This document shows positions 1,771 through 62,706 of a DNA stretch of 64,000 nt, in pieces. The DNA is from Naegleria gruberi (lineage: Eukaryota): NCBI GenBank assembly GCA_000004985.1, contig GG738865.1; one strand, written 5' to 3'. The notes under the pieces were generated by a model. The model searched no databases. It had not been told where the DNA came from and saw only the letters and a list, made by a program, of their open reading frames with translations. The translations under genes and the position numbers were made by a program. Within the stretch, counting starts at the first letter, position 1. Each line of letters starts with the position of its first letter.

Positions 1771-2799
1771 TCAGTTTTTATTGCTCATAATGGCCTCCCT
1801 GATTTTTTGCACCTTGGTACTGAACTTGATGGCTTTTGGTTCCTCTTTTGTATTATCTGAATCAAGAGGAAAGCGAATAAAGCTTGAACCGTAAACGAAT
1901 GTATCATCTGCGACTTCCTTCTTGCTGTCTGTATTAACTTGTCTTAGTTTTTTCAAATATTTCAATTCTAGACAAGAGTGAAGCATGATAGTATCTATCT
2001 GCATTTCACTATCTTCCAAAAAATTGGAAGAACTCACAACAGTTGGGGCAGTGAATTGATTTTCTCCAACCTTGAACAGAGAAGGTAATGTCTTTTCAAA
2101 AGTATCTGTTTGAACATCTTCCGGCTCAATAGAGAATTCTGGTTGAATTGTTTGATTTACCATCACTGGCTCATTCCAATAAAATTTAGTTCTAGTCTTC
2201 TTTGTTTTCTTGTTATGATAAATATCATTGTACTTGTTAACTAGAGCACTAATTTCCTTTTCAACATTTTCCAAATCCAAGAATCCATTTTGCTTTTCCT
2301 CATCACCTTCCACTCCTGAATAGAGTGAAGACCATTTCATTTGTTGATTCTTCCTCTCATAATATTCAACCTTCTTTAACTTTTCAATCAAAGTCTCCTT
2401 CCTTCGAATTCTTTCATTCTCCTCTCTTTCCGCTAGTACTCTCTTTTTATATTCTGTTTTAAATAACTTGATAGCTTGTTTTCTATAATTATTATTATCA
2501 TCATTTCCATCATGATGAATATTTGCAATAATTTCAAAGGCTGGACAATTTTCTTGTTTTTTCCTCTCGTAAATGATTTTTTCTCTATAAAGATTCTCCA
2601 ATCTCTTGGCCAATATTTCAATCCGTTCCATACTTGATGTATTATTCCCTCCATCATTAATTTTCTTCTCCAACTCTAAAGGCTCTCCGATAGTTTTAAT
2701 AATCTTTCCACAATGTTTCCTGATTCTCCTTTGAAATTCGTTAATAAATTGCAATCGTAGATCGATAGCATCATCTTGTACTGTTACATAGTGAGGCAT
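1771..2799 (-). CDS. Hypothetical coiled-coil protein (Lys/Glu/Arg-rich)
   Basis: Single long ORF. The track start at 2811 is TTG; the first ATG is at 2797..2799 (MPHYVTVQDD...). Heptad-like charged stretches (EREENERIRRKETLIEKLKKVEYYERK). No family recognised. Confidence 0.6.
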   Translation of the reverse strand: MPHYVTVQDDAIDLRLQFINEFQRRIRKHCGKIIKTIGEPLELEKKINDGGNNTSSMERIEILAKRLENLYREKIIYERKKQENCPAFEIIANIHHDGNDDNNNYRKQAIKLFKTEYKKRVLAEREENERIRRKETLIEKLKKVEYYERKNQQMKWSSLYSGVEGDEEKQNGFLDLENVEKEISALVNKYNDIYHNKKTKKTRTKFYWNEPVMVNQTIQPEFSIEPEDVQTDTFEKTLPSLFKVGENQFTAPTVVSSSNFLEDSEMQIDTIMLHSCLELKYLKKLRQVNTDSKKEVADDTFVYGSSFIRFPLDSDNTKEEPKAIKFSTKVQKIREAIMSNKN

Positions 2800-13409: not shown

Positions 13410-15455
13410 ATGCCTCCACCTCCTCCTTCAACATCTTCATCATCAACACCAAGAGGAAAGGCAATGCGATCTGCTTTTCTACCACCCGAAACCCCATTAT
13501 CAACCAAAATTAGAAAACCAATCAGGGCCACTCCTTCTTCTTCAACTTCCTCATCGACCAATGGCACTAAGCTACAAGAACAAGAACAGCTACAAGACCA
13601 ATGTATTAAAGTGTACATTAGAATTCGTCCGAACGATGATCATGACCAATTACAAATTGAATTTCTCAACAATTCTTCAATTCAAGTCACGTGTAAAAAT
13701 CAAGAAAAGGCAGATACACCAAAAGTATTCCTATTTGATCAGGTTTTGGATGAAAATGTTTCTCAGCAACAAGTTTTTGATTTGATTGGTGTTCCAGTTG
13801 TTGAAGAACTTCTTCAGGGGTTCAATGCTTCCATTTTAGGTTATGGACATACAGGATCTGGTAAAACATTTACAATGGGAACTAATCTTCATGAGATTGC
13901 AGATTCCTTTGAGAGTGGCAATTTGCCTGCTGCTTGTGGTTTATTGCCACGAATTGTTGAAAGGTTGCTAAACAGGAAGAAAGTGGACGAACAATTAAGC
14001 TGCTCCTTATTTGAAATTTATAATGGAGGAGTTTATGATTTATTTGGAGAGGCCAGCAAAAAGTGTAAGGTCAAGTATTCAAACGGTGTGGATGTTGTGA
14101 CCAATGCTAAAAAGAAGCTTATTCATTCACTGTCTGATCTTTCTTCCATTTCGTCTGGTTTAAAAAGGAGACATCAAAGTGCAACTGGACAAAATCTATC
14201 CTCATCAAGATCACACTGCATCTTTAGATTGTTTATCACAACTGCAGACAATACTGAAAGATGCCTAAACATGGTTGACTTGGCTGGATCTGAACGTCAA
14301 AAAACTGCCAACATTCACGCTGATAAAATGTTACTAGATGAAGCAAATTACATTAATACTTCATTGACAGTTTTGAAAAGATGCATTGAAGCAGTCTATA
14401 ATAATCAATCCAATACTGATAAGAAGACACTAGTTCCATACAGGGAAGATAATCTTGCCTTATTGTTGCATTCAACTTTGGAAGGAAATTCAAAAACTTT
14501 CTTTATTGGAAATATTGGAACTGCAAGTGAATCGATATCAACTTTGAATTATGCACAAACGGCAAGAAAGATTAAAAAGATGACTAGCAAGTTGAGTTCA
14601 ATGTTGAAGAAGAAATCAGGAGGATTGTTTGAAGAGGAAATTGAAAAGTTAAAGAAAGAGTTGGAAGAAACTAAGGGTAAATTGGATGAGGAAAGAGATA
14701 GCAAGACCAAACATATTGAAGAACTCTCACAGAAAATTGCATTATTAGAAACTAAACAACAGGAAGCTAATGAAATTCTCAAACAATCGAATACCATTAT
14801 AGAAGAGATGCAAATCAGAGACGATTCTCTGAAAGAAATTTGCTCAGAAAAAGAAGAAATTATTTCAAATCTCTTTGAAGAATTGTCAAAAGCCAGAAAA
14901 GAAAGCGAGCTCTTGGAGAAGGACAATTCAACATTGAAGAGTGAAAATTCAATTCTTTTGGAAGCAATTGAAAATCAATGTGAAATCATTAGACAACGAG
15001 ATAAGGAACATGATTCAGCTTTCCAAAATTTGAAAGAGCAACTAGACGAATATCAAAAACAGTCATCCTCAAAGACTCTTACAATTCAAACTCTGCGAGA
15101 TGAATTGAAAAAAAAGGACAAAATCATACAGAGAAAATCTTCAACTACTGCAGAACAACTTTATCAGACCATTGAAAATTTACTTAAAACAATTGAAGAT
15201 CAAAAGAAGACAATTCACATGTTTTTGAATGGAACGATGGAAGTTGTGGATATTGATAAGGAAGAAGCTCATGATGGTAATTCATGTGATAGTGATGATG
15301 ATGATGAGAAGGTGATGTCTGATTCTCCAGTTGTGAAATCAAACAAACGAAAGGTAATTTCTCCACTCCAAAATATTGTCTATGAATCAACAGATGAAAA
15401 TAATGAACCAGAATGTAAATATTCAAAATCTGATTTATTAGAATATTTAAAATAA
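13410..15455 (+). CDS. Kinesin-like protein, N-terminal motor plus coiled-coil stalk (divergent/orphan family)
   Basis: Motor motifs IKVYIRIRP, GYGHTGSGKTFTMG (P-loop), SSRSHCIF (switch I) and VDLAGSERQ (switch II), then about 250 aa of coiled coil. Stop TAA at 15453..15455. Confidence 0.9.
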   Translation: MPPPPPSTSSSSTPRGKAMRSAFLPPETPLSTKIRKPIRATPSSSTSSSTNGTKLQEQEQLQDQCIKVYIRIRPNDDHDQLQIEFLNNSSIQVTCKNQEKADTPKVFLFDQVLDENVSQQQVFDLIGVPVVEELLQGFNASILGYGHTGSGKTFTMGTNLHEIADSFESGNLPAACGLLPRIVERLLNRKKVDEQLSCSLFEIYNGGVYDLFGEASKKCKVKYSNGVDVVTNAKKKLIHSLSDLSSISSGLKRRHQSATGQNLSSSRSHCIFRLFITTADNTERCLNMVDLAGSERQKTANIHADKMLLDEANYINTSLTVLKRCIEAVYNNQSNTDKKTLVPYREDNLALLLHSTLEGNSKTFFIGNIGTASESISTLNYAQTARKIKKMTSKLSSMLKKKSGGLFEEEIEKLKKELEETKGKLDEERDSKTKHIEELSQKIALLETKQQEANEILKQSNTIIEEMQIRDDSLKEICSEKEEIISNLFEELSKARKESELLEKDNSTLKSENSILLEAIENQCEIIRQRDKEHDSAFQNLKEQLDEYQKQSSSKTLTIQTLRDELKKKDKIIQRKSSTTAEQLYQTIENLLKTIEDQKKTIHMFLNGTMEVVDIDKEEAHDGNSCDSDDDDEKVMSDSPVVKSNKRKVISPLQNIVYESTDENNEPECKYSKSDLLEYLK

Positions 15456-15458
15456 AAA

Positions 15459-16529
15459 ATGGGAAATAGTCAACCAAGTAGAAATTTCACAAAAAATCAA
15501 TTAACAACACCAGTTTCCATTCCGATATTGTTTCTTATCGGAGATAAATCAAGTGGAAAGACGCAAACTATTCTTTCATATAACCACAGTTTCGAATTAA
15601 ACAGACGAACCCGACATTTAATTATTGAACTTTCGCGATGCATTCTTGGTTATGAAGCTCATCAAATTTCCAAGATTGACGAAAAACATTACAAAAGCAT
15701 TGCAAAAAAGTTAAAAAAAACTTGGAATTCCAAAAAGGAAAATTCTTTAAAATTCAACGCTGAAAATTTTAAAAGAAATTTAAATTATTTTGAAATTTCA
15801 ATTGAAAAACTTTTGGAAATTCTTGAAAAAATTGTAAAGGACGAATTTAGTACTGAATTGACCAATTCAGAAATTCAAATTATTGAACAAGCTCAACTAT
15901 TAATTCATCCATTTGCTTATTTCCTGGAAAATTGGTCAATTGGAACACAAACTAATCAATTAGTTGAATTATGTGCAATTCCAAGATCGAAATTATCACT
16001 TGATTCAGAAACATTTTCATGGATGAAAGAAAGAGAAAATTCTGTCGTTTTGGTTTTCATTTCATTGATTGGATGGTTGGATGAAACAGAGTATAATTTT
16101 CACAATTTTGATGAGATTGGAAAGGTGCTTGGACACGTTTCGAATAAGAAATTCGAATTTGTTTTTACAAAACCAGATCTGTTGTGGAAAATTCTGGCAA
16201 AAGGAGTGAAATATAAACATCAGGTGAAAGATACAAGAGCAGAGTTATTGGATATGGAAACTAAATACGGATTCGATCGAATAGTTAGCTCAATAATTTC
16301 AAAATACGAAACTGAACTACTGGCAGAATGCAATGATGCACAGAAACCTTTCAACTATCACATAGCAAGAACCAATTCATTGGACGAAATCTCAAAAGTG
16401 ATTGAAAGTGCCACTTCTGAATTTTCTCAATTTATTTCACCATTTATTATTCGAAAGACTTTATTCCAACCAGCACATTCCAATCAATTATTCTATTCAG
16501 ATCTATTAATATTGTGCATCTACCCTTAA
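15459..16529 (+). CDS. Divergent G-protein alpha-subunit-like protein with degenerate GTPase motifs
   Basis: MGNSQPS fits the N-myristoylation pattern MGxxxS. P-loop LFLIGDKSSGKTQTI. Overall G-alpha layout, but DVGGQR is replaced by LCAIPRSK and NKKD by TKPD (VVLVFISL..FEFVFTKPDLLWKIL). The ATG lies 3 nt after the kinesin stop. Confidence 0.55.
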   Translation: MGNSQPSRNFTKNQLTTPVSIPILFLIGDKSSGKTQTILSYNHSFELNRRTRHLIIELSRCILGYEAHQISKIDEKHYKSIAKKLKKTWNSKKENSLKFNAENFKRNLNYFEISIEKLLEILEKIVKDEFSTELTNSEIQIIEQAQLLIHPFAYFLENWSIGTQTNQLVELCAIPRSKLSLDSETFSWMKERENSVVLVFISLIGWLDETEYNFHNFDEIGKVLGHVSNKKFEFVFTKPDLLWKILAKGVKYKHQVKDTRAELLDMETKYGFDRIVSSIISKYETELLAECNDAQKPFNYHIARTNSLDEISKVIESATSEFSQFISPFIIRKTLFQPAHSNQLFYSDLLILCIYP

Positions 16530-16883
16530 TAATCCTTTAAATACAGTGAAAAATTGATTATTTTTAACAGAAACTTTCCGTAATGAAATATAACAGTTGA
16601 CATTTCCATAACTCGTGTCAAGTTTCTATCCAATTCTATCTTCATATTACATGATGAAGAAGGTAGAGTAAGCAACTGCCAAACATCAAAATTTGGCCAG
16701 CTCTATACACCAAACAAACATCTTGAAAGTTTTGCAAGTTTAAATTTCAGATCTTGGAAAAAAACGTTGCAACTTTCCATAAACAGTTTCTATTGCCAGA
16801 ACTGTAAAGAAAAAACCAAACTAATCTTCATAGCGCTCAAATTAAACTTTTAGCTTATTAGAAGACACAAAAAAATAAACACA

Positions 16884-19162
16884 ATGAAGTGGTTCTCTAC
16901 TACACATGTGTTTTGTTTGTTGTTGATTTTGTTGGTAGTGGTAGAAAGTGAGTTGACAATTCTGTCAAGCGAAGATTTGGCATTTGACAGTTCCAGGAGT
17001 AATCAGAGTGTTATTGAAAGGAAATTATTATCAATTGACGAAAATATAAAGAGAATCAATATTTCTAACACAAATTTCCTTCAAAATTTAGCAAATGACA
17101 ATTGGCAGGTAATCGCATCAACTCAATCACTAGTAATTGTTAGTTTACAGAATTTAACAACCATTGATGATGTTCTTCTACTCGCATCACGTAAACTAAT
17201 TAAAATTGGTGTACACACTATTATTGGAATAGACATTAGGTTTGTGGAGACGAAACTTCAACTAAACTCGACGAAACACTTCTACAAGACTGAGAGAATG
17301 GACAGAACATCTTCTGATTGTTGGATGGGAAATGTTTTCGAATATTTCGATGTTGTAATTTCAAGTGATTTGTTTCTTCCAATTCTCATAAGACAAAATC
17401 GAGATTGTTATGTCACAACCCCAGTGTTTAGAACATTAGATTATCAAGATTTGAGTTTAGTTTCATTTTCTCCCTTTGAAATAGTAATAGCAAACTCAAA
17501 AGCATCATTTAATGATCTTGTCACCTATCAATATGAAATAATGAACGACATGTTCAAAAATTTACAAATTTCACAACAAGTTTGTGAATCAACGACAAGT
17601 TCATACAAGGAACATGATTATTCAGTGTTGAGAATTGAACAATTTTTCACAAATATTTCAGCGGATGATTTTTTATTTATTGTGGAATATCATGCGTTGG
17701 ATAATTGGACACTAAATCAAACATTTACTAATTTGGCATTTGAAATGGTGTTAAATAGAACTGGATATAGTGTTGATAAGCTCAATTCTATGAAAAGATC
17801 ATTCTTTCCCACAAAATGTTACTCCTGTCTAACGTCATCTTGTATGTGGGAAGACAGAGCTAGTCCAGTAGCTTCAAATGCAGATGGTGTCAGTATTGGA
17901 GGTGGTATCTCTCTATTCATTGCATTATTTTTCTATTTTCCTTCTTTAATTCTATTCAGAAACAGAGAATCGGTCAAGATTCGTCTCATTGTTCCATACG
18001 TTTCGGTTCTGAGTCCAGTTTTCATCATGTTGATTCAGATTTTTCAACTTATCAAGCCGTGTTATTTGCTCTATCAGATTGCTGTTAATTTTCTATCCTG
18101 TTGGTCGATTATCATTTATTTTTTGATTTGTATTCGATTCGTCTTGTTGAGAAATATTTATACGCTAGTTCTGTATCTTAATGAGAGACATATCAAGATT
18201 TTAAAATGGTTAGTGAGTAAGAGAGTTGCAAGTATTGGATCCTTTCTGATGGGTGTGTTGATTGGATGTTTAGTTTCCCTCGTTCCCCTTGTTGGATTTT
18301 ATGATGTAAGTTGTTATTCGAATCCCAAACTAAACATCTTCTTTGAAAATAGGAATTCTTTGGAAATCGTGCTGCCATACAATGTGCTTTCATCACCTTT
18401 GGAATCACTGTAGCCATTGCAACATTATCATTACTAGCACTTGTCATTCATTTCCTCTTCAAGATTCCAATAATTTGGAGAAGAGGTCTATTATATATTC
18501 TATTCTTTGATGATCCATTTCAAATCAAGTTTGATATTTTATTCTTCTCACTCAATACTATAGTCATTACAGTTTATTTATTCACAGAGGCGAATCAGAA
18601 TTATGTTTACAGTATTTTTGCACCACTCCTATCTCACAATATTGGAATGTTGTATAGAGGAGGTTTAGTTTTGATTATTGAATGGTTTAAAACGATTTAT
18701 TTTAGAAAACAACTGAATATGACTGAGAAGGAGAAAGTGGACGAATTGGTTCTTCATTTGGAAAATCCAGAATTCTTCAATTTAATGAAGGAATTTGTTG
18801 CAAAGGAAACTTCACTTGAGAACTTGAAATTTTACGAAGAATTGAAACAAATAGAAAGAATGAGTCAATCTGACAAGAATCCCAAAATCAGTCACGAAGA
18901 AATGATTCGAATAAGGGACAAGTACTTTAAAGAAAATGTTCTATACGAATTGAATATTGGAGGCCAAACTAAGCAATCGTTTCACAATCTCGTAGCAACA
19001 GCTGCAAATCCAAATGAAGAAGTTCGCCTTAAAGATTTGAAATTCATTCTCGATGAAGAATTGATGGGAAATTTGAGTGATGCCTATTTGAGATTGAAAC
19101 AACAACCAGGTTTTAAGAGATGGAAAGTAGCTCACAATATTTATATTGAGGAAAAGGAATAG
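16884..19162 (+). CDS. Seven-transmembrane receptor-like protein with C-terminal RGS domain (7TM-RGS)
   Basis: Exons 16884..18305 and 18353..19162 (47-nt intron GTAAGT..AATAG, phase 0). Signal peptide MKWFSTTHVFCLLLILLVVVES, an ectodomain of about 330 aa, and seven hydrophobic segments. RGS box LENPEFFNLMKEFVAKETSLENLKFYEELKQ..IRDKYFKENVLYELNIG..SDAYLRLKQQPGFKRW. Confidence 0.8.
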
Positions 19163-19448: not shown

Positions 19449-21133
19449 TTATTCGTCAGCAATTGCTTTCATATTTTTAATTTCTTCCTCGTGTTTCTCT
19501 CTCAATTCCTTCTTATTGAGCGATTTCTTAAGAATTGCCAAGAATAAGAAAGCTGGAATTAACCAAATAAATAAAACTAAAAGTAAGGTTTGAGGAAGTT
19601 TGAGTTTGGACAAGATACTATAAACACCACTGGTCACAGAAATTCCCAAATAGGTAAATGTTGAAAAGAAACCCATAAATTCACACTTCTTTTCCAATGG
19701 AATTAATTTGCTCATTAATCCACGAGCTACACTAGCATTCCATGCATATAAAAATCCAACAACCAGAAATTGAGCCAAAACAATGTACTTTTCCACTTTC
19801 ATTGAAATTGTAATAAATACTGAATTGAAGAAGAATTAGAAAATTCTCATTCAATTTGATTTGAAAACTTACTCGAAAGTGTTAAAACTCCAAAAAGTGA
19901 ATTTTGACCTGCCAAAACATAAATGTCATGAACCTTGAATAATTTCTCAAAAATTACACCTCCAATCACACCACCAACCATGGCAATCTTGAAATACAAG
20001 TTCAATAACACCTCCTGTTCAAGTCCAAAATTATAAATATCAATAAAAAGAGGTCCCAAATAAATTGTCACAACAGTACCAGCTGTGGAGAAGAATAAAT
20101 AGGAAAAGAGGAAAATCCAACAGTGATAGTATTGCTCATTCCTTCTCCAATGGATGAAGGTCTCAGCAAGTGATTTTAAAGATTTGGCAACCACTGCATA
20201 GACCTTTCCCAATCCTCTCAAATATTTTGGTAATTTGGAGAAACATTCAGGAATTTGCAAAGTTTGTGCTGTTTTGGCAGAAATTGGCTCTGGATTCAGA
20301 GTGACCTTATCTACACCATTTGGACTCAGAATGACAAACAGAGAGACCAGAATGGTGAGACTTGTGAAAACGAGAACCCACCAATTTTCTCTCGAAATAT
20401 CCCAAACTCCTCCCGAAAAAACACTCGAAGGTACAAAGGCCAATACCAATAATCCAACAAGATTGACACCAAATCCAATGAAATTACCCAACAAACTCAA
20501 AATCATCATATTCTTCTTATCAAAACAAGGTAAGAGAGCATTATTATTCATTACTGAAAATCTCAAAAAGAACATGGCCAATATATACACAATTTCACAA
20601 ATAGCCAAATGAGAAGTATAATCCTGTGGTGATTCATGTGGTAATTTATCAGTGAAAAACAATCCAATTGTTGCCAAAATACCCAAATACATTGTCACCA
20701 TCATTGAACTCCTAATTAATTTCAAATTATCAACCAAAGATCCCAAAATTGGCAATGTCAATGCACTTGCCAATGTTGTCACTGTATTAATAATTGAAAA
20801 TGCAGTAGAATACTCAGCTCCACTACCAGAAGCAACATTATGTAAAATCTTTGGATACAGAGCTGAATAGACAATTGTGTTCAACACATTAAAAACAATA
20901 CTAAACGATAACCATCCAATTGAACTTTTCACAACATGAAACAGTATCTGTGTTCTACTACTATGACCCATTCTATTCATTCCATTCTTAGCATCATCAT
21001 GTTCTGCATCATCATCATTCATCATTAATTGTTTTGATTCTTCATTATCAACAAATGATTGATCATGATGATCTATTGATTGAAAACGAGCATGATGATC
21101 ATATTCATCACCTCCATCTCCTCTTTGTATCAT
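19449..21133 (-). CDS. 12-TM major-facilitator-type transporter (possibly Atg22/UMF1-like)
   Basis: Exons 19873..21133 and 19449..19819 (53-nt intron GTAAGT..TTCAG, phase 1). 6+6 hydrophobic segments with a central loop and an acidic, His-rich N-terminus. The subfamily is uncertain. Confidence 0.6.
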
Positions 21134-27521: not shown

Positions 27522-30500
27522 TCACTCGACCAAATCATCAATTACTTTTTCATTCTTTTCAACAAATCCTGGAATGCTCTTTTCACCAATACCAATTTTG
27601 GTGAGCTCGTTAATGGATTTGAATGGTCTGTGTTCGATAATCTTTTCAGCCTTTTTATCACCAATAGTGACAAGCCTCTTCAATTCTTTAACTTCATTTG
27701 ATTCATCATTGATATATTCCAATATCTTTTCAGCAGTTGAGCTACTCTTTAAAGATGCTGGTTTGGATTTTGTTGCTGTCTTTTTCTTTGGTTTCTCCTC
27801 TTCTTCATCTTCATCGACCATCTTGTCGTTGTTAACTTGTTTCTCCTCTTCTTCATCTTTGTAAAGTGCCTTGGTTCTTTCTTCATTCTTGATTCTTCTC
27901 TTCAACTTTTCAACCTTTCGTTGGAGTTTTTCATTTGTTGGGAGAAGAGCAAGAGCCTTTTCCAAGAGTTCCAAAGAACCTCTCTCATTACCTTCCTTCT
28001 TTAAAATGGCTGCTTCCTTAATGTGATTTCTTGCAAGAGCCAGTTTGTCCTCTTTCGTCAACATTCTTCCAGAATCCAATGTCAAATCCATGGACTTGTT
28101 AATGGCAAAAGTGCTAATCTCCAGAAGAGCTGCATTATCGAAGAATACTGCACCAGCTTCCTGCTTTGGTTTCTTTCCTCTTCTGACGGCCTTTGGCACA
28201 AAACTATTCTTTTTCTCCTCTTCTTCCACTTGCTCTTCTTGTTCATTTTCAGAATCAGAATCTTCTGCTGAAGATCTCTTTCTTTTTGGAGCAGTATTCT
28301 TCTTGGTAGCTTGTCTTGTCTTTGGCTTTTCCTTTACAGGAGAAGGTACATTGGTCTTGGTGTAAATGATGGATTCTTCGATTTTAGGATCAAAGATAAT
28401 TCCTTCCAATGGTTGTACTGGTTGTATTTTAACAGGTTTAGGAAGTGTAGTCTCTGTTGTGATCTTTTCAAGTAATGGTGAAGGAGTAATAATGATTGGT
28501 TGAACTGCAGTTGATGTCGACAATTCGTTATTCTTCTTTTCGAATAAATCATCTGTTGTAACATTCTCCAAACCTCCCAATATAGTGTGGAAATCATCAA
28601 CAGGGAAGAGTGTAATATCCTTCTCCTTGATTGGGGAAATTGCTGAAAGATCCAACTCTGGAAGGGTTGACTTAGTTGACGAACCTGGCTTAGTAATACC
28701 TCTTGATTGCAAGCTCTTTAACCTTTGATTTCTTGTTGGAGTTTTGTTATTTACATGATTAGGTTTTTGATTAGATAAATTAGTTTTTGGTTTTTGATCT
28801 GACAATGTTTGAGGTGATGGTACTTTTCTTTGTGCACTCAGGTTTAAGGTTGACTTGGTGTTTATCTTAGAGAGTGAGGTTGTCTTAGATGCAGCTAGTG
28901 ATGGTGTATTGTTGCTAGGTGTGGAAGGAACTTGATTTTCCTTTCCTAATTGCTTGTTGGCAAATGATGGTGTCGAATTCATAGTGTTGGTATTAAGAGT
29001 AGAGAGTGGAGCTCTGTTGGACGATGTTGCTTTGAAAGTCTTAGCCAAAGGTGTAGTGGTAGTAGATACAGATATCACTTTGCTCATTACAATCTCTGGT
29101 GTTCTTGAGTCCTTCTTGTTTGAGGACTTTGGAGCTTGGAATGAAGAGGTTGTTGGTTTAGGAGTAGTTGTTGATTGCTTTTGGAAGAGAGGTGGAGTTG
29201 GGAGCGAATTCATTGTCTTGACACTCATTGGGGTAGAGGAGCTCTTCTTTGTGGAAGTGAGTGGAGTTGAACCAACACTCTTAGCAGAGCTAGGAGTTGA
29301 GCTAGTTGATTTGGATGGAGTAATCTCGTCTAAATCATTTAACATGGCACTCAATTTTCTCTTCATGTCCATAAAATCTGAACCATCAGAACTGACCATT
29401 GTATTAGATGAAGTATTCGAAGCTCCTGTAAGTGCCAAATGTTCCAACTTGGCCAATCTATCCAAAATCTCATCTTGCAACGAAATACTCCTCTTCAAAA
29501 TTGGATTCAAAATGCCTTGTTTCAAATCTTCTTGTGCCTTCTCCAAGTCTTCTTTTGTTGCAAAATTGTTTGGAGCTAAAAGCATCATTTGGTTAATATA
29601 ATCAGCTCCAGACAGAGATTTAGATGTGGAGGTGACTCCAATCTTCTTTTGCGACATTAATTTTTCCTTTTCCAATTGCAAAAGTTTCAATTGTGTATCC
29701 TTATCAGCTCCATATCCTATGTTTGCCATATTTTCCAAGGCTTTTCTTTCTTCCTCATTTTCAAAGTAGCTGGCATTTATCACAGGCTTATTTACAATGG
29801 ATTGTGATTTCATACCAAATCTCAGGGATTTGTGAGTATCTACATAGTGTTCAGTAAATGGAGAAACATTGACAACCATGATTGCTTGAGAAGATCCACC
29901 GAGAGAATCTTGTAACAATCGTGTAAGTTTGCTGTCACGATACGAAACCTTTTGATTCTTGGAATTTAATTGATCTACAACCTTTCTCAAGCTGAATAAG
30001 GATGTATTGATACTACTCGATTCTGCCAACCTAGCACCAGTATTACCAGTCTTTCTATTATCTTCAGAACCAGCCAAATCTATTAAATTAATCTTACCAG
30101 TGAGCCATTGACCTGATCTAGGATCCTTATTTTTCACAGTAAGTGTTAAAATAGCATGAGATCGAGAAGATTGCACGTTGAGTTTCGTTGAGGCAACCTT
30201 CCTATTCTTCATACCCACTTGATAAAATTCCTCACAAAATCCATCATAGGACGTTATTGATTTGATAGTTAGTCCCTTAACAATAATATTCTTACTCTTA
30301 TCTTCATGGAGAGGTAAATCCTTTCCAAGAGATGTGGTTGAATCTTTCGAAGAAACCAACAAGTCAAAGACCTTCTCGTTATAAATCTCCAAGTAGGAAA
30401 CAGATAATTTACAGAGTGGAGCAGAACTATCTGGGCCCTTTCTCCTTTCCACTTCAAATAATAATTGTTGTACTGTTCGAGGAATAAGGCCCATATTTTC

Positions 30501-30977
30501 CAAAGTTTCACCACCCTGCATGGTGTGAGTTTTACCACTTCCAGTCATACCATAGCAAAACACTGTTGTATTAAAACCATCAAAGAGAGTGTCCACTATT
30601 GGTATTATTTCGTTTTGGAAGATTTCATCTTGTGTGGAGGATTCATCATAGGTGGCATCGAATTCAAAACGAATTTCATCGCCAGGATTTCTTGGATCCT
30701 TCATGTACACTATATTGTTCAATGATTGTTGTTGTTGTTGTTCTGATTTGCCAACACGACATGTTTGAAAGCCTGATTTTTCAACTTCACTGGGCAGAAG
30801 AGGTCGGATACGAGAGGCAACTCTTACCTTTCTTCCACCTGTTGTTGATGTGTTATTATTACTAGTAGTGGTGGTGCTGTTGTTGGATATTGATAAACTT
30901 AATGATGGCGAATCGTTGTGTACCATAAAATTTGCCGAGCAACCACGAGGACTCTTTGCAATGCACTGTGTTGACAT
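27522..30977 (-). CDS. KIF22: Kinesin-10 chromokinesin (KIF22/Kid-like) with C-terminal helix-hairpin-helix
   Basis: Motor motifs FCYGMTGSGKTHTM, SSRSHAIL and LIDLAGSEDNRKTGNTGARLAESSSINTSLFSLRKVVDQL..YRDSKLTRLLQDSLGG, close to human KIF22. A long Ser/Thr/Pro-rich linker follows, then a TPR-like helix pair. The C-terminal LKRLVTIGDKKAEKIIEHRPFKSINELTKIGIGEKS is an HhH like that of Kid. The track start at 31001 is TTG; the first ATG is at 30975..30977. Confidence 0.88.
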   Translation of the reverse strand: MSTQCIAKSPRGCSANFMVHNDSPSLSLSISNNSTTTTSNNNTSTTGGRKVRVASRIRPLLPSEVEKSGFQTCRVGKSEQQQQQSLNNIVYMKDPRNPGDEIRFEFDATYDESSTQDEIFQNEIIPIVDTLFDGFNTTVFCYGMTGSGKTHTMQGGETLENMGLIPRTVQQLLFEVERRKGPDSSAPLCKLSVSYLEIYNEKVFDLLVSSKDSTTSLGKDLPLHEDKSKNIIVKGLTIKSITSYDGFCEEFYQVGMKNRKVASTKLNVQSSRSHAILTLTVKNKDPRSGQWLTGKINLIDLAGSEDNRKTGNTGARLAESSSINTSLFSLRKVVDQLNSKNQKVSYRDSKLTRLLQDSLGGSSQAIMVVNVSPFTEHYVDTHKSLRFGMKSQSIVNKPVINASYFENEEERKALENMANIGYGADKDTQLKLLQLEKEKLMSQKKIGVTSTSKSLSGADYINQMMLLAPNNFATKEDLEKAQEDLKQGILNPILKRSISLQDEILDRLAKLEHLALTGASNTSSNTMVSSDGSDFMDMKRKLSAMLNDLDEITPSKSTSSTPSSAKSVGSTPLTSTKKSSSTPMSVKTMNSLPTPPLFQKQSTTTPKPTTSSFQAPKSSNKKDSRTPEIVMSKVISVSTTTTPLAKTFKATSSNRAPLSTLNTNTMNSTPSFANKQLGKENQVPSTPSNNTPSLAASKTTSLSKINTKSTLNLSAQRKVPSPQTLSDQKPKTNLSNQKPNHVNNKTPTRNQRLKSLQSRGITKPGSSTKSTLPELDLSAISPIKEKDITLFPVDDFHTILGGLENVTTDDLFEKKNNELSTSTAVQPIIITPSPLLEKITTETTLPKPVKIQPVQPLEGIIFDPKIEESIIYTKTNVPSPVKEKPKTRQATKKNTAPKRKRSSAEDSDSENEQEEQVEEEEKKNSFVPKAVRRGKKPKQEAGAVFFDNAALLEISTFAINKSMDLTLDSGRMLTKEDKLALARNHIKEAAILKKEGNERGSLELLEKALALLPTNEKLQRKVEKLKRRIKNEERTKALYKDEEEEKQVNNDKMVDEDEEEEKPKKKTATKSKPASLKSSSTAEKILEYINDESNEVKELKRLVTIGDKKAEKIIEHRPFKSINELTKIGIGEKSIPGFVEKNEKVIDDLVE

Positions 30978-31017
30978 TTTTTTGGTTCTTATTTTCTTCA
31001 ACGGTTTGTGTTTTGAA

Positions 31018-34217: not shown

Positions 34218-36179
34218 ATGTTCAAACAATTCCCAGCAGATGTACTTCCCCATCTGTTTAGTTTTTTCTCTCTGAGAGAAATCTATTATAATCTCCAATT
34301 TGTTAGCAAGGAATGGCTAGAAATTGCCAACGTACCTAATGAATATAACAAAGTACGAAGAAGAAACAATGTTGGTGGAGGAGACAATAGTGATAATGGT
34401 TATCATCAGTCGTGGTCAATTTATTTGGTTTCGTCATTCAGAAGTGGAAAGCAATTTAAAGAAATTAATCGAATGATGAGTGATTTGGAGAGCGATGCTT
34501 CTGATGAGGAAATTTCAAGGGCCATGTGGGATGATCAACATACACAATTGATCTTTTCATGTATTGAAGGAAAGATGGTGCATGGCTTGCATGCTGGTAA
34601 TCCACTTGTTAAAAAGGATGGTATTGGTGAAATGATCAAATCAATGCAATTCCTCTATGGAGTTCATTATGATAAGGAGCTTGTTAAGAGAATTGTTTCA
34701 GATAGTAACTCAATCAAGTCATGTCTCTATGTAGAGAATGAAGAATTTGCTAAAAACTTTCAAGAAAGAGTGGTTGAAAATGGTAGCGGTTTAAGTGATC
34801 TGAAGGAAAAGTTCTATTTTATGGATTTGTGTTATTTGGACTCCTCTTTGAAAAATGTTAGTGATGAGGTATTCATTTACAAAATATTTGAGAGGGTGTT
34901 TTCTTTGGATTTAGATAACGATTGGTCCAATGTATTTCCCTGTATTCGAAAATGCAAATTATTGAAACAGAAACTAGAAAAATGTAATGGAGAAACTATT
35001 AGAAAAATGTTTCAAATTGAAATGGAGATTGCCTTGAAAATGTTACTCAATATTCTCAAGTGGGGTTACCATCTATCTGATTTGAACTTTCTATACTCCT
35101 TTGCAAGTTATTGTAAATTCACACAAAGCCAATCTGAAGAGATAGTGAAATTGTCTGATTCTCTTATTAATGAAATTAATAGAGTTGTATTGATTGAAGA
35201 AGTGGTACTCACTCCAATCATTGAAGATGACTACATCTCCACCAGCATATTGGATCAGTTCAAGAATAACAAACTTATTGAAATGGTCAACCAAAATAAT
35301 GCACATCCACTCGAAGAAATCGAATATAGAAATCTCTATACTAACACATCTTGCTTTTTAAAATTTCTTCATAGAAAATTTTCAATAGGAGAAATGTTTA
35401 GAACAACAATTAACAAAAGAAAAAAGCTACTAGATGCAGAGAATAGATTGAATGGATATTTCGTTTTTTGCATTGTCAACCAGAGAGACATGGAAAAGAG
35501 AGCAAAATTTTTGGAAAAGATTGAACAGGCATTTATTTATGCAACTGAGCTGAGGGATTTCAGAACTGCTTTCTTTTTCTCGACTCTATTGAATAATGCT
35601 TGTGTTTATAGATTACGTAAAACTCGTGAACACGTGGATAGATCAAGTAATTTCAAAAATCTGTTCGAGGAGAGCCAGAAAACAATTTCTTCAGACGGAA
35701 ATTATAGAAAATTATACCAAACTGTTGAAAAATATGCCAAAGAAGCCAATATTCCAATGTAAGTTTGTAATTTCTGGTTAATTCGATTCAACTCATTATG
35801 GTATATTGATAGCCATCTTCCATTGACAAATTTAACGTTTGTTATTGAAGGAAACTCAAATCAAATTACTATTCTCTTTTTGAGTTACAGATTTATAGCA
35901 CAATTTGGAAGATCATTGAGGATACCATCTAAACTTGGTAACTATGAGAGGAATTTATTCGATAAGAAAACTATTAAAATTATTGACAAGAAGGGAGTTA
36001 AGCATTCAATCAAATCATTTTTTGAAGGAGATGATGATACTTCACACATGCATTATGAACTACAAGCTGATCAACAAGTGTTGGAACTTTTTGTTTTCAT
36101 TGCATTTAATTTCCAACTAAAAGAAGATTCAGAGTTGTACAAAATGAGTTTAGAATGTGAACCAAGACAAGCCAAATAA
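34218..36179 (+). CDS. F-box protein with C-terminal RasGEF (CDC25-homology) catalytic domain
   Basis: Exons 34218..35758 and 35813..36179 (54-nt intron GTAAGT..GATAG, phase 2). F-box: FPADVLPHLFSFFSLREIYYNLQFVSKEWLEIA. RasGEF core: RAKFLEKIEQAFIYATELRDFRTAFFFSTLLNNACVYRLRKTREHV..NYRKLY..ANIPIHLPLTNLTFVIEGN..LYKMSLECEPRQ. Confidence 0.8.
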
Positions 36180-60476: not shown

Positions 60477-62706
60477 ATGTCCTCCCTATTCAATCGTTTC
60501 AAAAAGAATAACAGCAATGCAGAGAATAAATTTGAACAACAACGTAACGCCAATCGTAAAACACTACAACCTCAGGATTTGACCTCGACCCAAAGTGAAA
60601 TCAGTGCTCATGACAAGTCGGGTTCACTCTCAATTCCATCAAGTAATACTGCCAGTAGTGGTTCTCTAGCCTATTATGAGGAAGGAGCATCAGTGAATGC
60701 CATGACTCAACTCTCAAACAAAAACAGTAAGAAGGGAGATAACAACAAGGAAAAGATGCCACCACCAGAGGAAATTGTTGCTCAATTTGAAAAGTTGTTG
60801 AAATATCAAGGTATTACACCAACTGAAAAACGATACAAATTGATGATTATGAAACCTTTGGAAGAAAAGTGGAAATTGGTTAAAATTATGCAAAATACAA
60901 AGAAGGAAGCTGATAAATTGCATACCATCAAGGACACTCCTGAATATATTGTACATCGTTTGAAAGATGAACCAACACTTGGTTCAGTTACTGAATTGAT
61001 CAGTCTCTTAAAGGGAGCTAAATCAGAGGATTGGATTCGTAAATTCTTGGATTTACAAGGTTTGGAGTGTTTATTTCAAATACTGGTAGAAAGTTGTGAT
61101 CAACAAATTAGAGAACAGTATGTTTTTGTTAACATTTTCAATAATTTATTGAATGTAACATTATTCAATTGATTATAATCCTTTTTTGGACATTTTTGTA
61201 ACTTTTTCAATATTTGTAATGTCCTCCAATGATTTTTAACACAGAGGTGGTAATATTCACGAAGAATTTTCTGATGATGAAGCACAACCTGAGGAAGAAG
61301 AAAATGAAGAGGAAGAAGATGGACTCGAAGATGAGGAAAAGAAGGAAGAAACTGGTTCCGAACAAGTGGAAACCAAGTCTTTGGATCCAAAGAGTAAACC
61401 ACCTCCACCTATGCTTCCACCAAGAATTGAAACTAAATCAAAGCGTGAAGATCCATACGATGCTCTTCAAGCTGAATGTGTCAGAGCACTTCGTGCATTG
61501 ATGAATACCACTCTTGGTCTTAATGCCTTTTTGCAAAGTAAGGACAAGTCAGTGTTAACTGTCACCAAGATTTTGGATTCCAGAAATATCAAAACCAAAA
61601 CTCAAGTTTTCTTCTTGTTGGCAACTATTTGTAGATTCGAACAAGGTTTTTGGATTGCTATCGATGCTATGAACAAGTACAAGTTGAATAGAAAGGAACG
61701 TGCTAGATTCCAAACCATTGTTCGTTTATTGAAGAAGAAGGTTGAAGTGAGTGATGAAACTATTTTACTCAAAACTTCAATTATTGTTTTCATTAACTCT
61801 TTAATTAATTCTCCACAAGATGCTTCATTGAAGAAACAATTGAGAAAGGAATTTGTTGATCTTAAAATGATTGAAATCAGTGAACAATTGAAAGCTTTGG
61901 ATCTTGACGATACTTTAACAATGCAACTTTCATTCTTCGAAGAGGAAGTTCAAGATATTGAAGATGCTGAAGAGGAGGAAGAAGAGCTAGATCTCGACGC
62001 ATTGGAAGATCCTATGGAAATTCTCAAACTTATTAGAGTTCAATTGGGTGGTTCTCAAGCTTTCGAATATTTCGTTAAAATCCTTCAATACTTTTTAATC
62101 ATTTCCGGTAAATCAAATGAAAAGGAAAAATCAAAGAATATGAATATTCTCTTGACAATGATCAAGAAGGCTGTTGCTTTCAAGGAAGATGGTGGAGTTG
62201 AAGAAGTCAGTGTTAAGGAATTGCAATTAGCTGATCGTGTTGAAACTCAACAACGTAAGATTACACAACTCGAAACTAGATTCTTGAAATTGGCAGAAAT
62301 GTTAAAGACTGGTAAAATTGATGATAAGGTTATTGAAAAATTCATTAGTTTGACATCTAAGGACACAAGAGAAAGCTTTAACAAATCAGTTGAAAGTATG
62401 GATCCTAGTGAGTTACAAGAAGAATTCCTCAAAGATGCCGAAGAATTACTTGTAAAGGTTAAGTCAAAAGGTGGATTTGATTTGGATACTTCAAATGCTC
62501 CAGAAGATTTAAAGAAACACTTGAAGAAACTCGAAACTGAGCTCAAATTTATGACTTATAAGGCCAAACAATTAGAGAAACAATTACAATCTGGAGGTGG
62601 AGGAAAAGGTGGAGGTGGTTCTGGTGGAGGATCAGGTGGAGGCGGCTCAGTAGGTTCAGGAGAAGCAAGCTCTGGTGATTCAGGATCTGAGGTGCCCTTC
62701 AGGTGA
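60477..62706 (+). CDS. Diaphanous-related formin, N-terminal GBD/FH3 region plus coiled coil and Gly/Ser linker
   Basis: Exons 60477..61117 and 61245..62706 (127-nt intron GTATGT..ACACAG, phase 2). GBD-like PPPEEIVAQFEKLLKYQGITPTEKRYKLMIMKPLEEKWKLV. Armadillo-like FH3 ECVRALRALMNTTLGLNAFL. This frame ends at TGA 62704 directly before FH1. Confidence 0.8.

What the first reader, a model, noticed from the sequence alone, without database searches (positions are those of the whole stretch)
15459..19162. Linked pair: degenerate G-alpha-like gene immediately upstream of a 7TM-RGS receptor gene
The ORF at 15459..16529 has G-alpha hallmarks: MGxxxS myristoylation, a GDKSSGKT P-loop, helical-insert spacing and a conserved beta-strand/TKPD region. 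However, it lacks the switch II DVGGQ motif (LCAIPRS in its place) and has TKPD instead of NKxD, so it is unlikely to hydrolyse GTP normally.

The next gene starts 354 nt downstream on the same strand. It encodes a signal peptide, an ectodomain, seven TM segments and a C-terminal RGS box. This is the AtRGS1-type architecture that regulates self-activating G-alpha proteins in plants and some protists.

Physical linkage of a 7TM-RGS gene with a catalytically degenerate G-alpha-like protein suggests a co-regulated, non-canonical G-protein module.
Basis: partly seen in the sequence, partly recalled or inferred. Interest (0 to 1): 0.6.

Follow-up and report, generated by a model that had tools for sequence, protein, structure and literature searches.

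The report
Degenerate G-alpha-like gene beside 7TM-RGS gene
In a Naegleria-like amoeba genome, a very divergent, probably GTPase-dead G-alpha relative lies just upstream of an ordinary member of the large Naegleria 7TM-RGS receptor family, but the pairing is absent from every related locus I could read, so it looks like chance adjacency, not a signalling module.

Summary
ORF 15459..16529 (356 aa, gene A) is a real gene. Gene B starts 354 nt downstream (16884..18305 + 18353..19162, one 47-nt intron, 743 aa). It has a signal peptide, a ~315-aa ectodomain, seven TM segments and a C-terminal RGS box.

The homology is nevertheless real, through an intermediate. A full-library phmmer search finds only two relatives, both from Naegleria gruberi:
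- an uncharacterised orthologue (E 6e-16);
- a divergent protein (E 4e-4) that is itself a clear Pfam G-alpha (E 3e-42).

hhalign gives 97-98% probability and a full-length collinear alignment. G1 (GDKSSGKT), G4 (TKPD) and the G5 strand are conserved. The switch I Arg/Thr and DVGGQ are gone.

Gene B is 35-43% identical to Naegleria 7TM-RGS proteins. That family is known and was shown biochemically to act as GAPs, with 28 genes in N. fowleri. Gene B keeps the RGS4-type G-alpha contact residues.

No gene A relative lies next to any of four gene B homologues. Gene A also lacks the switch elements that RGS boxes bind. Both AlphaFold models were too poor to use.

Verdict: new members of known kinds. 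A linked module is not supported.

The parts
15459..16529 (+). Gene A: intron-less CDS of 356 aa. A divergent, catalytically degenerate G-alpha-like protein, orthologous to N. gruberi NAEGRDRAFT_48704.
   Evidence: ORF. Full-library phmmer gives P0006 at E 6e-16 and P0007 at E 4e-4. P0007 is Pfam G-alpha at E 3e-42. hhalign probability is 97-98% and the alignment is collinear over residues 1-353.
15540..15563 (+). G1 / P-loop, GDKSSGKT (residues 28-35).
   Evidence: Read directly from the sequence. SSGKTQTIL is invariant against the N. gruberi orthologue. It aligns with GAGESGKS of Gi-alpha-1.
15585..15935 (+). Roughly 117-residue insert (residues ~43-159) at the position of the G-alpha helical domain.
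   Evidence: G1-to-G3 spacing is 135 aa against 153 aa in Gi-alpha-1. DSSP on both low-confidence AlphaFold models shows 5 helices here.
15975..15989 (+). Degenerate G3 / switch II: AIPRS in place of DVGGQ.
   Evidence: Alignments. The N. gruberi orthologue has LVSTN at this position, and P0007 has TAGGK.
16167..16178 (+). G4 variant TKPD, inside the invariant block FEFVFTKPDLL.
   Evidence: P0007 has SKPD and Gi-alpha-1 has NKKD.
16359..16373 (+). Strand beta6 / G5-like HIART (residues 301-305), aligned with TCAT of Gi-alpha-1.
   Evidence: HIAR is conserved in the N. gruberi orthologue.
16530..16883 (.). 354-nt spacer between gene A and gene B.
16884..18305 (+). Gene B exon 1: signal peptide (residues 1-22), ectodomain (residues 23-~335) and TM1-TM4.
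18306..18352 (+). Gene B intron, 47 nt, GTAAGT..TAG. Removing it joins the two ORFs in frame.
   Evidence: The homologue L005 has a 44-nt intron at the same position.
18353..19162 (+). Gene B exon 2: TM5-TM7 and the cytoplasmic RGS box.
17895..18703 (+). Seven-transmembrane region (residues 338-591; the span includes the intron).
   Evidence: Seven family-conserved hydrophobic segments. Predicted cytoplasmic loops carry 3, 6, 3 and 4 K+R; predicted external loops carry 1, 1, 1 and 0.
18758..19135 (+). RGS box (residues ~610-735).
   Evidence: Pfam PF00615 at 31.7-34.7 bits against a cut-off of 23.9. The residues matching RGS4 E83, S85, E87, N88, E126, N128, D163 and R167 are all conserved.
13410..15455 (+). 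Context only: a kinesin ORF whose stop codon lies 3 nt before the gene A ATG, in the same frame.

Best explanation
The window comes from a heterolobosean amoeba related to Naegleria. The two genes are separate members of the lineage's expanded G-protein signalling toolkit.

**Gene A** descends from a heterotrimeric G-alpha subunit and has become a pseudo-GTPase.
- It keeps the nucleotide-holding elements: the G1 P-loop, the G4 motif TKPD with the guanine-specifying Asp, and the beta6/G5 strand. These are its most conserved blocks.
- It has lost the Mg2+/gamma-phosphate sensing and catalytic elements: the switch I Arg finger and Thr, and the DxxGQ of switch II.
- I infer that it still binds a guanine nucleotide but cannot hydrolyse GTP or perform the normal switch. 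It would then act as a nucleotide-locked or nucleotide-independent adaptor, comparable to plant extra-large G proteins and other pseudo-GTPases.

**Gene B** is a type I membrane protein: a glycosylated ectodomain, seven TM helices and a cytoplasmic RGS box with an intact G-alpha-binding surface.
- I infer that it works like the characterised N. fowleri 7TM-RGS proteins and AtRGS1, as a receptor-like GAP for catalytically competent, often self-activating, G-alpha subunits encoded elsewhere in the genome.

**The pairing.** The tandem position of A and B is most likely incidental.

Shown here: homology, motif status, gene structure, topology signals and lack of conserved adjacency. Inferred: nucleotide binding without hydrolysis, GAP activity and the target of the RGS box.
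For: Origin of the window:
- The best hits of both genes are Naegleria proteins.

Gene A:
- A phmmer search of 1.84 billion representatives returns only P0006 (E 6e-16) and P0007 (E 4e-4). P0006 is in the cluster of N. gruberi XP_002677676; P0007 is N. gruberi XP_002677043.
- P0007 matches Pfam G-alpha at E 3e-42 over profile positions 10-330 of 333. It also matches solved G-alpha chains down to E 8e-14.
- hhalign of the gene A family against P0007 gives probability 97.6%, E 3e-12. A permissive local alignment covers residues 2-353 and a global one 1-353, with the P-loops in register, at 97-98% probability.
- The invariant blocks between orthologues that are only 31% identical are SSGKTQTIL (G1/alpha1), FEFVFTKPDLL (beta5/G4) and HIAR (beta6/G5). 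The switch I and switch II positions differ between them and match no consensus.

Gene B:
- The spliced product is 743 aa.
- Its RGS box scores above the Pfam gathering threshold.
- It has homologues at E 1e-121 to 1e-132 in N. fowleri and N. lovaniensis, named RGS domain-containing proteins.
- It shows seven conserved hydrophobic segments, a positive-inside charge pattern and 8 ectodomain sequons.
- All eight RGS4-type contact residues checked are conserved.

Literature:
- N. fowleri has 28 7TM-RGS proteins whose RGS boxes are GAPs for selected G-alpha subunits. Binding is selective for the transition state (PMC9283941).
- Naegleria G-alphas with deviant catalytic motifs have already been noted (PMC8584482, citing Anantharaman et al. 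2011).

Adjacency:
- No gene A relative lies in the flanks of four gene B homologues.
Against: - There is no direct match of gene A or its orthologue to Pfam PF00503 at E<=1. There is also no match to any PDB sequence, even with a family profile.
- The family profile against Gi-alpha-1 alone is not significant.
- Both AlphaFold models are poor (pLDDT 40 and 38). Foldseek then finds nothing significant, so the fold is unconfirmed.
- The G-alpha assignment therefore rests on one intermediate sequence.
- A tandem, same-strand G-alpha-like to 7TM-RGS pair is expected by chance only about 0.02-0.08 times per genome. Chance is plausible but not proven.
- The gene B homologues examined are only 35-43% identical and may be paralogues.
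- The N. gruberi neighbourhood of the gene A orthologue could not be read.
Confidence: 0.7

Rival explanations
1. One reading: the pair is a functional, co-regulated module. The pseudo-G-alpha would be a dedicated partner of the neighbouring 7TM-RGS receptor, as a decoy, scaffold or nucleotide-independent transducer. This would resemble XLG proteins acting alongside AtRGS1 in plants.
For: - The two genes lie in tandem on the same strand, 354 nt apart.
- Such a tandem pair is expected by chance only about 0.02-0.08 times per genome for these two specific families.
- Both genes belong to the same signalling pathway.
Against: - The adjacency is absent at all four loci with gene B homologues.
- No gene A orthologue was detected in the N. 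fowleri or N. lovaniensis proteomes, although both keep close gene B homologues.
- Gene B's RGS box has the canonical surface for a transition-state G-alpha. Gene A lacks the catalytic Gln and Arg and has no conserved switch I.
- In N. fowleri, all G-alpha/RGS binding needed the AlF4- transition state and the switch I glycine (PMC9283941).
- The chance estimate is post hoc. With about 107 RGS genes and about 80 cyclase genes per genome, some pathway-related neighbour is expected by chance.
Confidence: 0.12
2. Gene A is a decaying relic: a G-alpha paralogue drifting towards loss, with no maintained function.
For: - The G2 and G3 motifs are lost.
- The family is tiny and patchy, found only in the window organism and N. 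gruberi.
- In the N. gruberi-like metagenomic contig L004, the orthologue has a ~34-codon deletion plus a frameshift that removes beta6/G5.
Against: - Gene A is an uninterrupted 356-codon ORF in DNA of 33% G+C.
- The start (MGN) and end are collinear with the N. gruberi orthologue.
- At only 31% overall identity, the nucleotide-binding blocks G1, G4 and G5 remain invariant. That pattern indicates selection, not neutral drift.
Confidence: 0.08
3. Gene A is not derived from G-alpha. It would be another P-loop NTPase whose similarity to P0007 is coincidental or confined to generic GTPase motifs.
For: - No direct Pfam or PDB G-alpha hit.
- Profile against Gi-alpha-1 is not significant.
- AlphaFold and Foldseek are uninformative.
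Against: - The match to P0007 covers about 185 residues at E 3e-12. It extends well beyond the motifs, through alphaG, alpha4, beta6, alpha5 and a shared C-terminal FSD[IL] tail.
- The global alignment is collinear, including the P-loop and an insert of 135-150 aa between G1 and G3. Among GTPases that insert is typical of G-alpha (from my own knowledge).
Confidence: 0.06
4. Gene A is expressed together with the upstream kinesin, either from a bicistronic mRNA or by read-through of the single in-frame TAA. Read-through would yield a kinesin fused to a G-alpha-like domain.
For: - The kinesin ORF ends at 15455 and the gene A ATG is at 15459. The two are in the same frame, separated by TAA and one AAA codon.
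- Other same-strand gaps between ORFs in the window are mostly about 100-350 nt.
Against: - The N. gruberi-like orthologue stands alone behind a divergently oriented gene, and it also starts with MGN.
- Being in the same frame has a 1-in-3 chance.
- There is no evidence about transcripts.
Confidence: 0.04

Closest known systems
N. gruberi NAEGRDRAFT_48704 (XP_002677676, 'predicted protein'; P0008 in the P0006 cluster)
   Same: It is the only clear orthologue of gene A: about 31% identity, collinear over the full length. The SSGKTQTIL, FEFVFTKPDLL and HIAR blocks are identical. It likewise lacks DxxGQ and has no Pfam hit.
   Different: It has a longer helical-region insert. Switch I and switch II have different sequences (LVSTN against AIPRS). 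Its N-terminus, MGNKQAT, fits the myristoylation pattern, whereas gene A's MGNSQPS does not. Its genomic neighbours are unknown, apart from a divergent upstream gene seen in L004.
Divergent N. gruberi G-alpha NAEGRDRAFT_49275 (P0007) and the Naegleria-specific G-alpha expansion
   Same: It is homologous to gene A (E 4e-4; hhalign 97-98%). It shares an xKPD G4 variant (SKPD) and the C-terminal FSD[IL] tail. It has also lost the catalytic Gln and the G3 Asp (TAGGK).
   Different: P0007 is still recognised by Pfam G-alpha (E 3e-42) and keeps the GG of switch II and the RRRW motif. Gene A is much further degenerated.
Plant extra-large G proteins (XLGs) and other pseudo-GTPases
   Same: These are G-alpha-derived proteins with deviant G motifs. 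They are thought to signal with little or no nucleotide cycling (PMC8584482). This is the functional analogy proposed for gene A.
   Different: The origin is independent. XLGs carry a large N-terminal extension that gene A lacks. No binding to G-beta-gamma or to nucleotide has been shown for gene A.
Naegleria fowleri 7TM RGS family (28 genes; PMC9283941) and Arabidopsis AtRGS1
   Same: Gene B has the same architecture of 7TM followed by a C-terminal RGS box. It is 35% identical over 89-95% of its length to N. fowleri and N. lovaniensis RGS domain-containing proteins of 714-831 aa. The RGS contact residues are conserved.
   Different: Gene B has a ~315-aa ectodomain with no recognisable domain: no Pfam domain was found, so none of the EGF or lectin-type modules described for some N. 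fowleri members. It has one intron, shared with L005 but absent from the Naegleria homologues. Sequence homology of its 7TM part to AtRGS1 was not tested.

Membership tests
Heterotrimeric G-protein alpha subunit (Pfam PF00503) | Significant direct match to the family profile | tested here: not met
   PF00503 is not listed at E<=1 for gene A, P0006 or the N. gruberi orthologue P0008. PDB sequence searches find no G-alpha, with the single protein or the family profile.
Heterotrimeric G-protein alpha subunit (Pfam PF00503) | Homology to bona fide members, shown through an intermediate sequence | tested here: met
   Gene A matches P0007 at E 4e-4 against 1.84 billion proteins. hhalign gives E 3e-12 to 7e-13 and probability 97-98%. 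P0007 matches PF00503 at E 3e-42 and solved G-alpha chains at E 8e-14.
Heterotrimeric G-protein alpha subunit (Pfam PF00503) | G1 P-loop, GxxxxGK[ST] | tested here: met
   GDKSSGKT at residues 28-35. It aligns with GAGESGKS of Gi-alpha-1.
Heterotrimeric G-protein alpha subunit (Pfam PF00503) | All-helical domain inserted between G1 and switch I | tested here: inconclusive
   The spacing fits: 135 aa between G1 and the G3 position, against 153 in Gi-alpha-1 and 149 in P0007. The region is predicted helical, but only in models with pLDDT around 40.
Heterotrimeric G-protein alpha subunit (Pfam PF00503) | G2 / switch I with the catalytic Arg and the Mg2+-binding Thr (RxxTTG) | tested here: not met
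   The aligned stretch is ENWSIGTQT in gene A and CNFPFRVVN in its orthologue. There is no Arg at the finger position and the stretch is not conserved between the two. The exact register is uncertain.
Heterotrimeric G-protein alpha subunit (Pfam PF00503) | G3 / switch II, DxxGQ with the catalytic Gln | tested here: not met
   AIPRS in gene A and LVSTN in the orthologue, at the DVGGQ position.
Heterotrimeric G-protein alpha subunit (Pfam PF00503) | G4, NKxD | tested here: inconclusive
   Gene A has TKPD. The Lys and the guanine-specifying Asp are kept and the Asn is replaced by Thr. The motif is invariant in the orthologue, and P0007 has SKPD. TKxD is compatible with guanine binding in dynamin (from my own knowledge).
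Heterotrimeric G-protein alpha subunit (Pfam PF00503) | Three-dimensional fold (Ras-like domain plus helical domain) | tested here: inconclusive
   The two AlphaFold2 runs gave mean pLDDT 40.3 and 38.5. Foldseek against the PDB gave no hit at E<=0.001.
Heterotrimeric G-protein alpha subunit (Pfam PF00503) | N-terminal lipid anchor and binding to G-beta-gamma or a receptor | not testable with these tools
   Gly2 is present, but Pro at position 6 violates the usual myristoylation pattern and there is no nearby Cys. Binding needs experiments.
7TM-RGS receptor-like GAPs (Naegleria 7TM RGS family / AtRGS1 type) | RGS box above the curated threshold, at the C-terminus | tested here: met
   PF00615 scores 34.7 bits for the exon 2 ORF and 31.7 bits for the spliced protein, against a cut-off of 23.9.
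7TM-RGS receptor-like GAPs (Naegleria 7TM RGS family / AtRGS1 type) | Seven transmembrane helices N-terminal to the RGS box, placing the RGS box in the cytoplasm | tested here: met
   There are seven family-conserved hydrophobic segments in residues 338-591. K+R counts are 3, 6, 3 and 4 in predicted inner loops against 1, 1, 1 and 0 in outer loops. A signal peptide and 8 ectodomain sequons are present. This rests on hydropathy only; no dedicated TM predictor was available.
7TM-RGS receptor-like GAPs (Naegleria 7TM RGS family / AtRGS1 type) | Full-length homology to known family members | tested here: met
   E 4e-132 to 6e-121, 34-35% identity and 89-95% coverage to N. fowleri and N. lovaniensis RGS domain-containing proteins. 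Identity is similar across the ectodomain, TM region and RGS box.
7TM-RGS receptor-like GAPs (Naegleria 7TM RGS family / AtRGS1 type) | G-alpha-contacting residues of the RGS box (RGS4 E83, S85, E87, N88, E126, N128, D163, R167) | tested here: met
   All eight are identical in gene B and in four Naegleria homologues. The RGS4 sequence was verified against PDB entry 1AGR.
7TM-RGS receptor-like GAPs (Naegleria 7TM RGS family / AtRGS1 type) | GAP activity on a G-alpha subunit | not testable with these tools
   Needs biochemistry. It has been shown for other family members in N. fowleri (PMC9283941).
Conserved linked gene pair / co-regulated module | Adjacency conserved in related genomes | tested here: not met
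   No gene A relative was found by tblastn in 6-10 kb upstream of, or in the downstream flanks held for, the gene B homologues in L001-L003, or in the 551 nt upstream in L005. tblastx finds no other shared flanking genes. The homologues may be paralogues.
Conserved linked gene pair / co-regulated module | Co-expression or physical interaction | not testable with these tools
   No RNA-seq data and no multimer structure prediction were available.

The most novel reading that the evidence does not exclude
The pseudo-G-alpha could be a nucleotide-locked partner dedicated to the adjacent 7TM-RGS receptor. That would be a protist counterpart of plant XLG/AtRGS1 signalling, in which a dead G-alpha couples to, or decoys, an RGS receptor. 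Expression might be coordinated along a tightly packed kinesin / G-alpha-like / 7TM-RGS gene string, since the first two ORFs are only 3 nt apart and in frame.
Probability: 0.08. Interest if true: 0.6.

Novelty: new member of a known kind. Interest (0 to 1): 0.25.

Why it matters
**Practical value.**
- Gene A and its N. gruberi orthologue, currently a "predicted protein", escape Pfam but can now be annotated as G-alpha-derived pseudo-GTPases.
- This adds an extreme case to the G-alpha degeneration already noted in Naegleria.
- The conservation pattern is G1, G4 and G5 kept, G2 and G3 lost. It predicts nucleotide binding without hydrolysis, which can be tested directly.

**Gene B.** It extends the biochemically validated Naegleria 7TM-RGS family to another heterolobosean. 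Its conserved ectodomain has no known domain.

**The linked module.** This would have been the interesting part, and the comparative evidence available does not support it.

Tried and rejected
- **Direct family and structure searches for gene A found no G-alpha:** Pfam at E<=1, PDB phmmer, a PDB search with the family profile, and word-indexed homologue searches with the single protein and with the profile (only P0006 was returned).
- **hhalign of the family profile against Gi-alpha-1 alone** was not significant, although the top local alignment fell on the G4 region.
- **Two AlphaFold2 runs** were made, one without and one with the G-alpha intermediate P0007 in the alignment. Both gave pLDDT around 40. 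Foldseek against the PDB returned no significant hits. A few G-alpha chains appeared among insignificant matches for the second model, and I give that no weight.
- **The N. gruberi genomic context could not be read.** Neither the gene A orthologue nor P0007 is on record by exact look-up. The only contig carrying the orthologue, L004, ends inside the gene.
- **The source genome could not be identified.** Exact look-up of three window proteins found nothing on record.
- **No second G-alpha, RGS or gene A paralogue is in the window**. Pfam scans of the other large ORFs gave none either.
- **A sequence in L005 upstream of the gene B homologue looked like a tRNA,** but ARAGORN did not confirm it.
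- **The primary source on inactive Naegleria G-alphas** (Anantharaman et al. 2011) is not held. It is cited only through PMC8584482.

Full report
**Source and setting.** The window has about 33% G+C and is densely packed with mostly intron-poor eukaryotic genes. The best relatives of both genes in the finding are Naegleria proteins. The source is therefore a heterolobosean amoeba related to Naegleria. The species is undetermined: three window proteins are not on record by exact look-up, and identities to Naegleria are only 31-43%.

**Check of the observation.**
- ORF 15459..16529 (+) is 356 aa.
- It contains GDKSSGKT at residues 28-35 and TKPD at residues 237-240.
- AIPRS occupies the position where G-alphas carry DVGGQ.
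- The next gene starts at 16884, 354 nt downstream on the same strand.
- That gene is split by a 47-nt GTAAGT..TAG intron (18306..18352). Removing it joins ORFs 16884..18413 and 18647..19162 in frame into a 743-aa protein.
Two details need correcting: the intron was not mentioned, and the N-terminus is MGNSQPS, with Pro at position 6 and Ser at position 7. This does not fit the usual myristoylation pattern (from my own knowledge). The N. gruberi orthologue's MGNKQAT does fit it.

**Is gene A a G-alpha relative?** Direct tests fail.
- Pfam gives no PF00503 hit at E<=1 for gene A or its orthologue.
- PDB sequence searches find no G-alpha, with either the single protein or the family profile.
- The word-indexed homologue search finds nothing.

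An exhaustive phmmer search of 1.84 billion representatives, however, returns exactly two proteins.
- P0006 (E 6e-16, 31% identity) belongs to the cluster of N. gruberi XP_002677676 / NAEGRDRAFT_48704, annotated "predicted protein".
- P0007 (E 4e-4) is N. gruberi XP_002677043. It is an unambiguous G-alpha: Pfam E 3e-42 over profile positions 10-330 of 333, and E down to 8e-14 against solved G-alpha chains, with the Entamoeba histolytica G-alpha 4fid as the best hit.

Profile comparison of the gene A family with P0007 gives 97.6% probability and E 3e-12 over the C-terminal 185 residues. Permissive and global modes give a full-length collinear alignment with the P-loops in register, at 97-98% probability. 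I therefore accept gene A as G-alpha-derived, resting on one intermediate sequence. Structure could not confirm this. Two AlphaFold2 runs gave pLDDT 40 and 38, and Foldseek found nothing significant.

**Motif status of gene A.** I aligned gene A with Gi-alpha-1. I recalled that sequence from memory and verified it as identical to PDB chains. The alignment shows:
- **G1:** intact.
- **G3:** DVGGQ is replaced by AIPRS. The orthologue has LVSTN and P0007 has TAGGK.
- **G4:** NKKD is replaced by TKPD. P0007 has SKPD.
- **G5:** TCAT is replaced by IART.
- **Switch I:** no Arg at the finger position, and the stretch is not conserved between the two orthologues.

At 31% overall identity, the invariant blocks between gene A and its orthologue are SSGKTQTIL (G1/alpha1), FEFVFTKPDLL (beta5/G4) and HIAR (beta6/G5). 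The nucleotide-holding elements are thus under constraint, while the elements for Mg2+/gamma-phosphate sensing and catalysis are gone. My inference is a pseudo-GTPase that still binds guanine nucleotide but neither hydrolyses it nor switches. It would act as a locked or nucleotide-independent adaptor, analogous to plant XLGs (PMC8584482). That review, citing Anantharaman et al. 2011, already notes that some Naegleria G-alphas deviate in their catalytic motifs and that N. gruberi has about 44 G-alphas.

**Gene B.**
- The RGS box scores above Pfam's gathering threshold: 31.7-34.7 bits against 23.9.
- Full-length homologues at E 1e-121 to 1e-132 and 34-35% identity are N. fowleri and N. lovaniensis "RGS domain-containing" proteins. 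A metagenomic homologue, L005, is 43% identical and shares the intron position.
- Family-averaged hydropathy shows seven hydrophobic segments in residues 338-591.
- K+R counts are 3, 6, 3 and 4 in the predicted cytoplasmic loops against 1, 1, 1 and 0 in the external ones. Eight of the ten N-x-S/T sequons lie in the ectodomain. This supports an N-out, C-in topology with a cytoplasmic RGS box.
- Aligned with RGS4 (sequence verified against 1AGR), the residues matching E83, S85, E87, N88, E126, N128, D163 and R167 are all conserved. The box therefore looks like a working GAP surface.
- This is the architecture of the 28-member N. fowleri 7TM-RGS family. The RGS boxes of that family accelerate GTP hydrolysis on selected, partly self-activating G-alphas. 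Binding there needs the transition-state form and the switch I glycine (PMC9283941).

**Is the pair a module?**
- The neighbourhoods of three Naegleria homologues of gene B contain no gene A relative. I held 6-10 kb upstream of each gene and the downstream flanks of each locus (L001-L003). The 551 nt upstream of the closest homologue (L005) contain none either.
- tblastx finds no other shared flanking genes.
- N. fowleri and N. lovaniensis keep gene B homologues, but no gene A orthologue is detectable in their proteomes.
- Gene A lacks what canonical RGS boxes bind, so it is unlikely to be gene B's substrate.
- Using published family sizes, a tandem G-alpha-like to 7TM-RGS pair is expected about 0.02-0.08 times per genome, and a pair in any orientation about 0.06-0.3 times. 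Counting all pathway-related neighbours (about 107 RGS genes and about 80 cyclase genes), a suggestive neighbour is expected by chance.

Caveats: the homologues may be paralogues, the N. gruberi context of the gene A orthologue could not be read, and expression is untested. I put the module hypothesis at about 0.1.

**Verdict.** Both genes are new members of known kinds. Interest is modest. The main gains are:
- an annotation for a Pfam-invisible G-alpha-derived pseudo-GTPase family;
- a clear biochemical prediction for it.

Noticed in passing
window 15453..15461: The kinesin ORF 13410..15455 ends with TAA only 3 nt before the gene A ATG (15459), in the same reading frame (..TTA AAA TAA AAA ATG GGA..). 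Other same-strand gaps between ORFs in the window are mostly about 100-350 nt. This could mean overlapping UTRs, a bicistronic transcript or stop-codon read-through.
   Followed up: partly
window 18306..18352; L005 ~1920..1963: The 47-nt intron of gene B sits at the same codon position as a 44-nt GTAAGT..CAG intron in the metagenomic homologue L005. The N. fowleri and N. lovaniensis homologues are intron-less.
   Followed up: partly
window 17157..17438 (gene B residues ~92-185): This is the best-conserved part of the ectodomain: 51-59% identity to Naegleria and L005 homologues, against about 37% overall. No Pfam family matches it. It may be a ligand-binding module of unknown fold.
   Followed up: no
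window 16488..16526; P0008 and P0007 C-termini: Gene A (YSDLLILCIYP), its N. gruberi orthologue (FSDISFTISM) and the divergent G-alpha P0007 (FSDISFV) share a C-terminal [FY]SD[IL] tail. In canonical G-alphas the extreme C-terminus is the receptor-coupling determinant.
   Followed up: no
L004 ~2216..2353: On an N. gruberi-like metagenomic contig, the gene A orthologue lacks about 34 codons (IISSII..HIARANLLN, which includes beta6/G5) and shifts frame relative to the N. gruberi reference protein. This is either a decaying allele or an assembly error. Separately, the reference model XP_002677676 starts 29 residues downstream of the MGNKQ start seen in this contig.
   Followed up: partly
window 19449..21133 (-): Two minus-strand ORFs (117 and 428 aa) rich in hydrophobic segments lie convergent to gene B. 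They are probably one multi-pass membrane protein gene split by an intron. The larger ORF has no Pfam match.
   Followed up: no
window 27522..31001 (-), 34218..35762 (+), 60477..62706 (+): Other signalling and cytoskeleton genes lie in the window: a second kinesin with a C-terminal helix-hairpin-helix motif, a RasGEF-domain protein, and a formin-like GBD/FH3 gene split over two ORFs. The window holds no further G-alpha, G-beta or RGS gene.
   Followed up: partly
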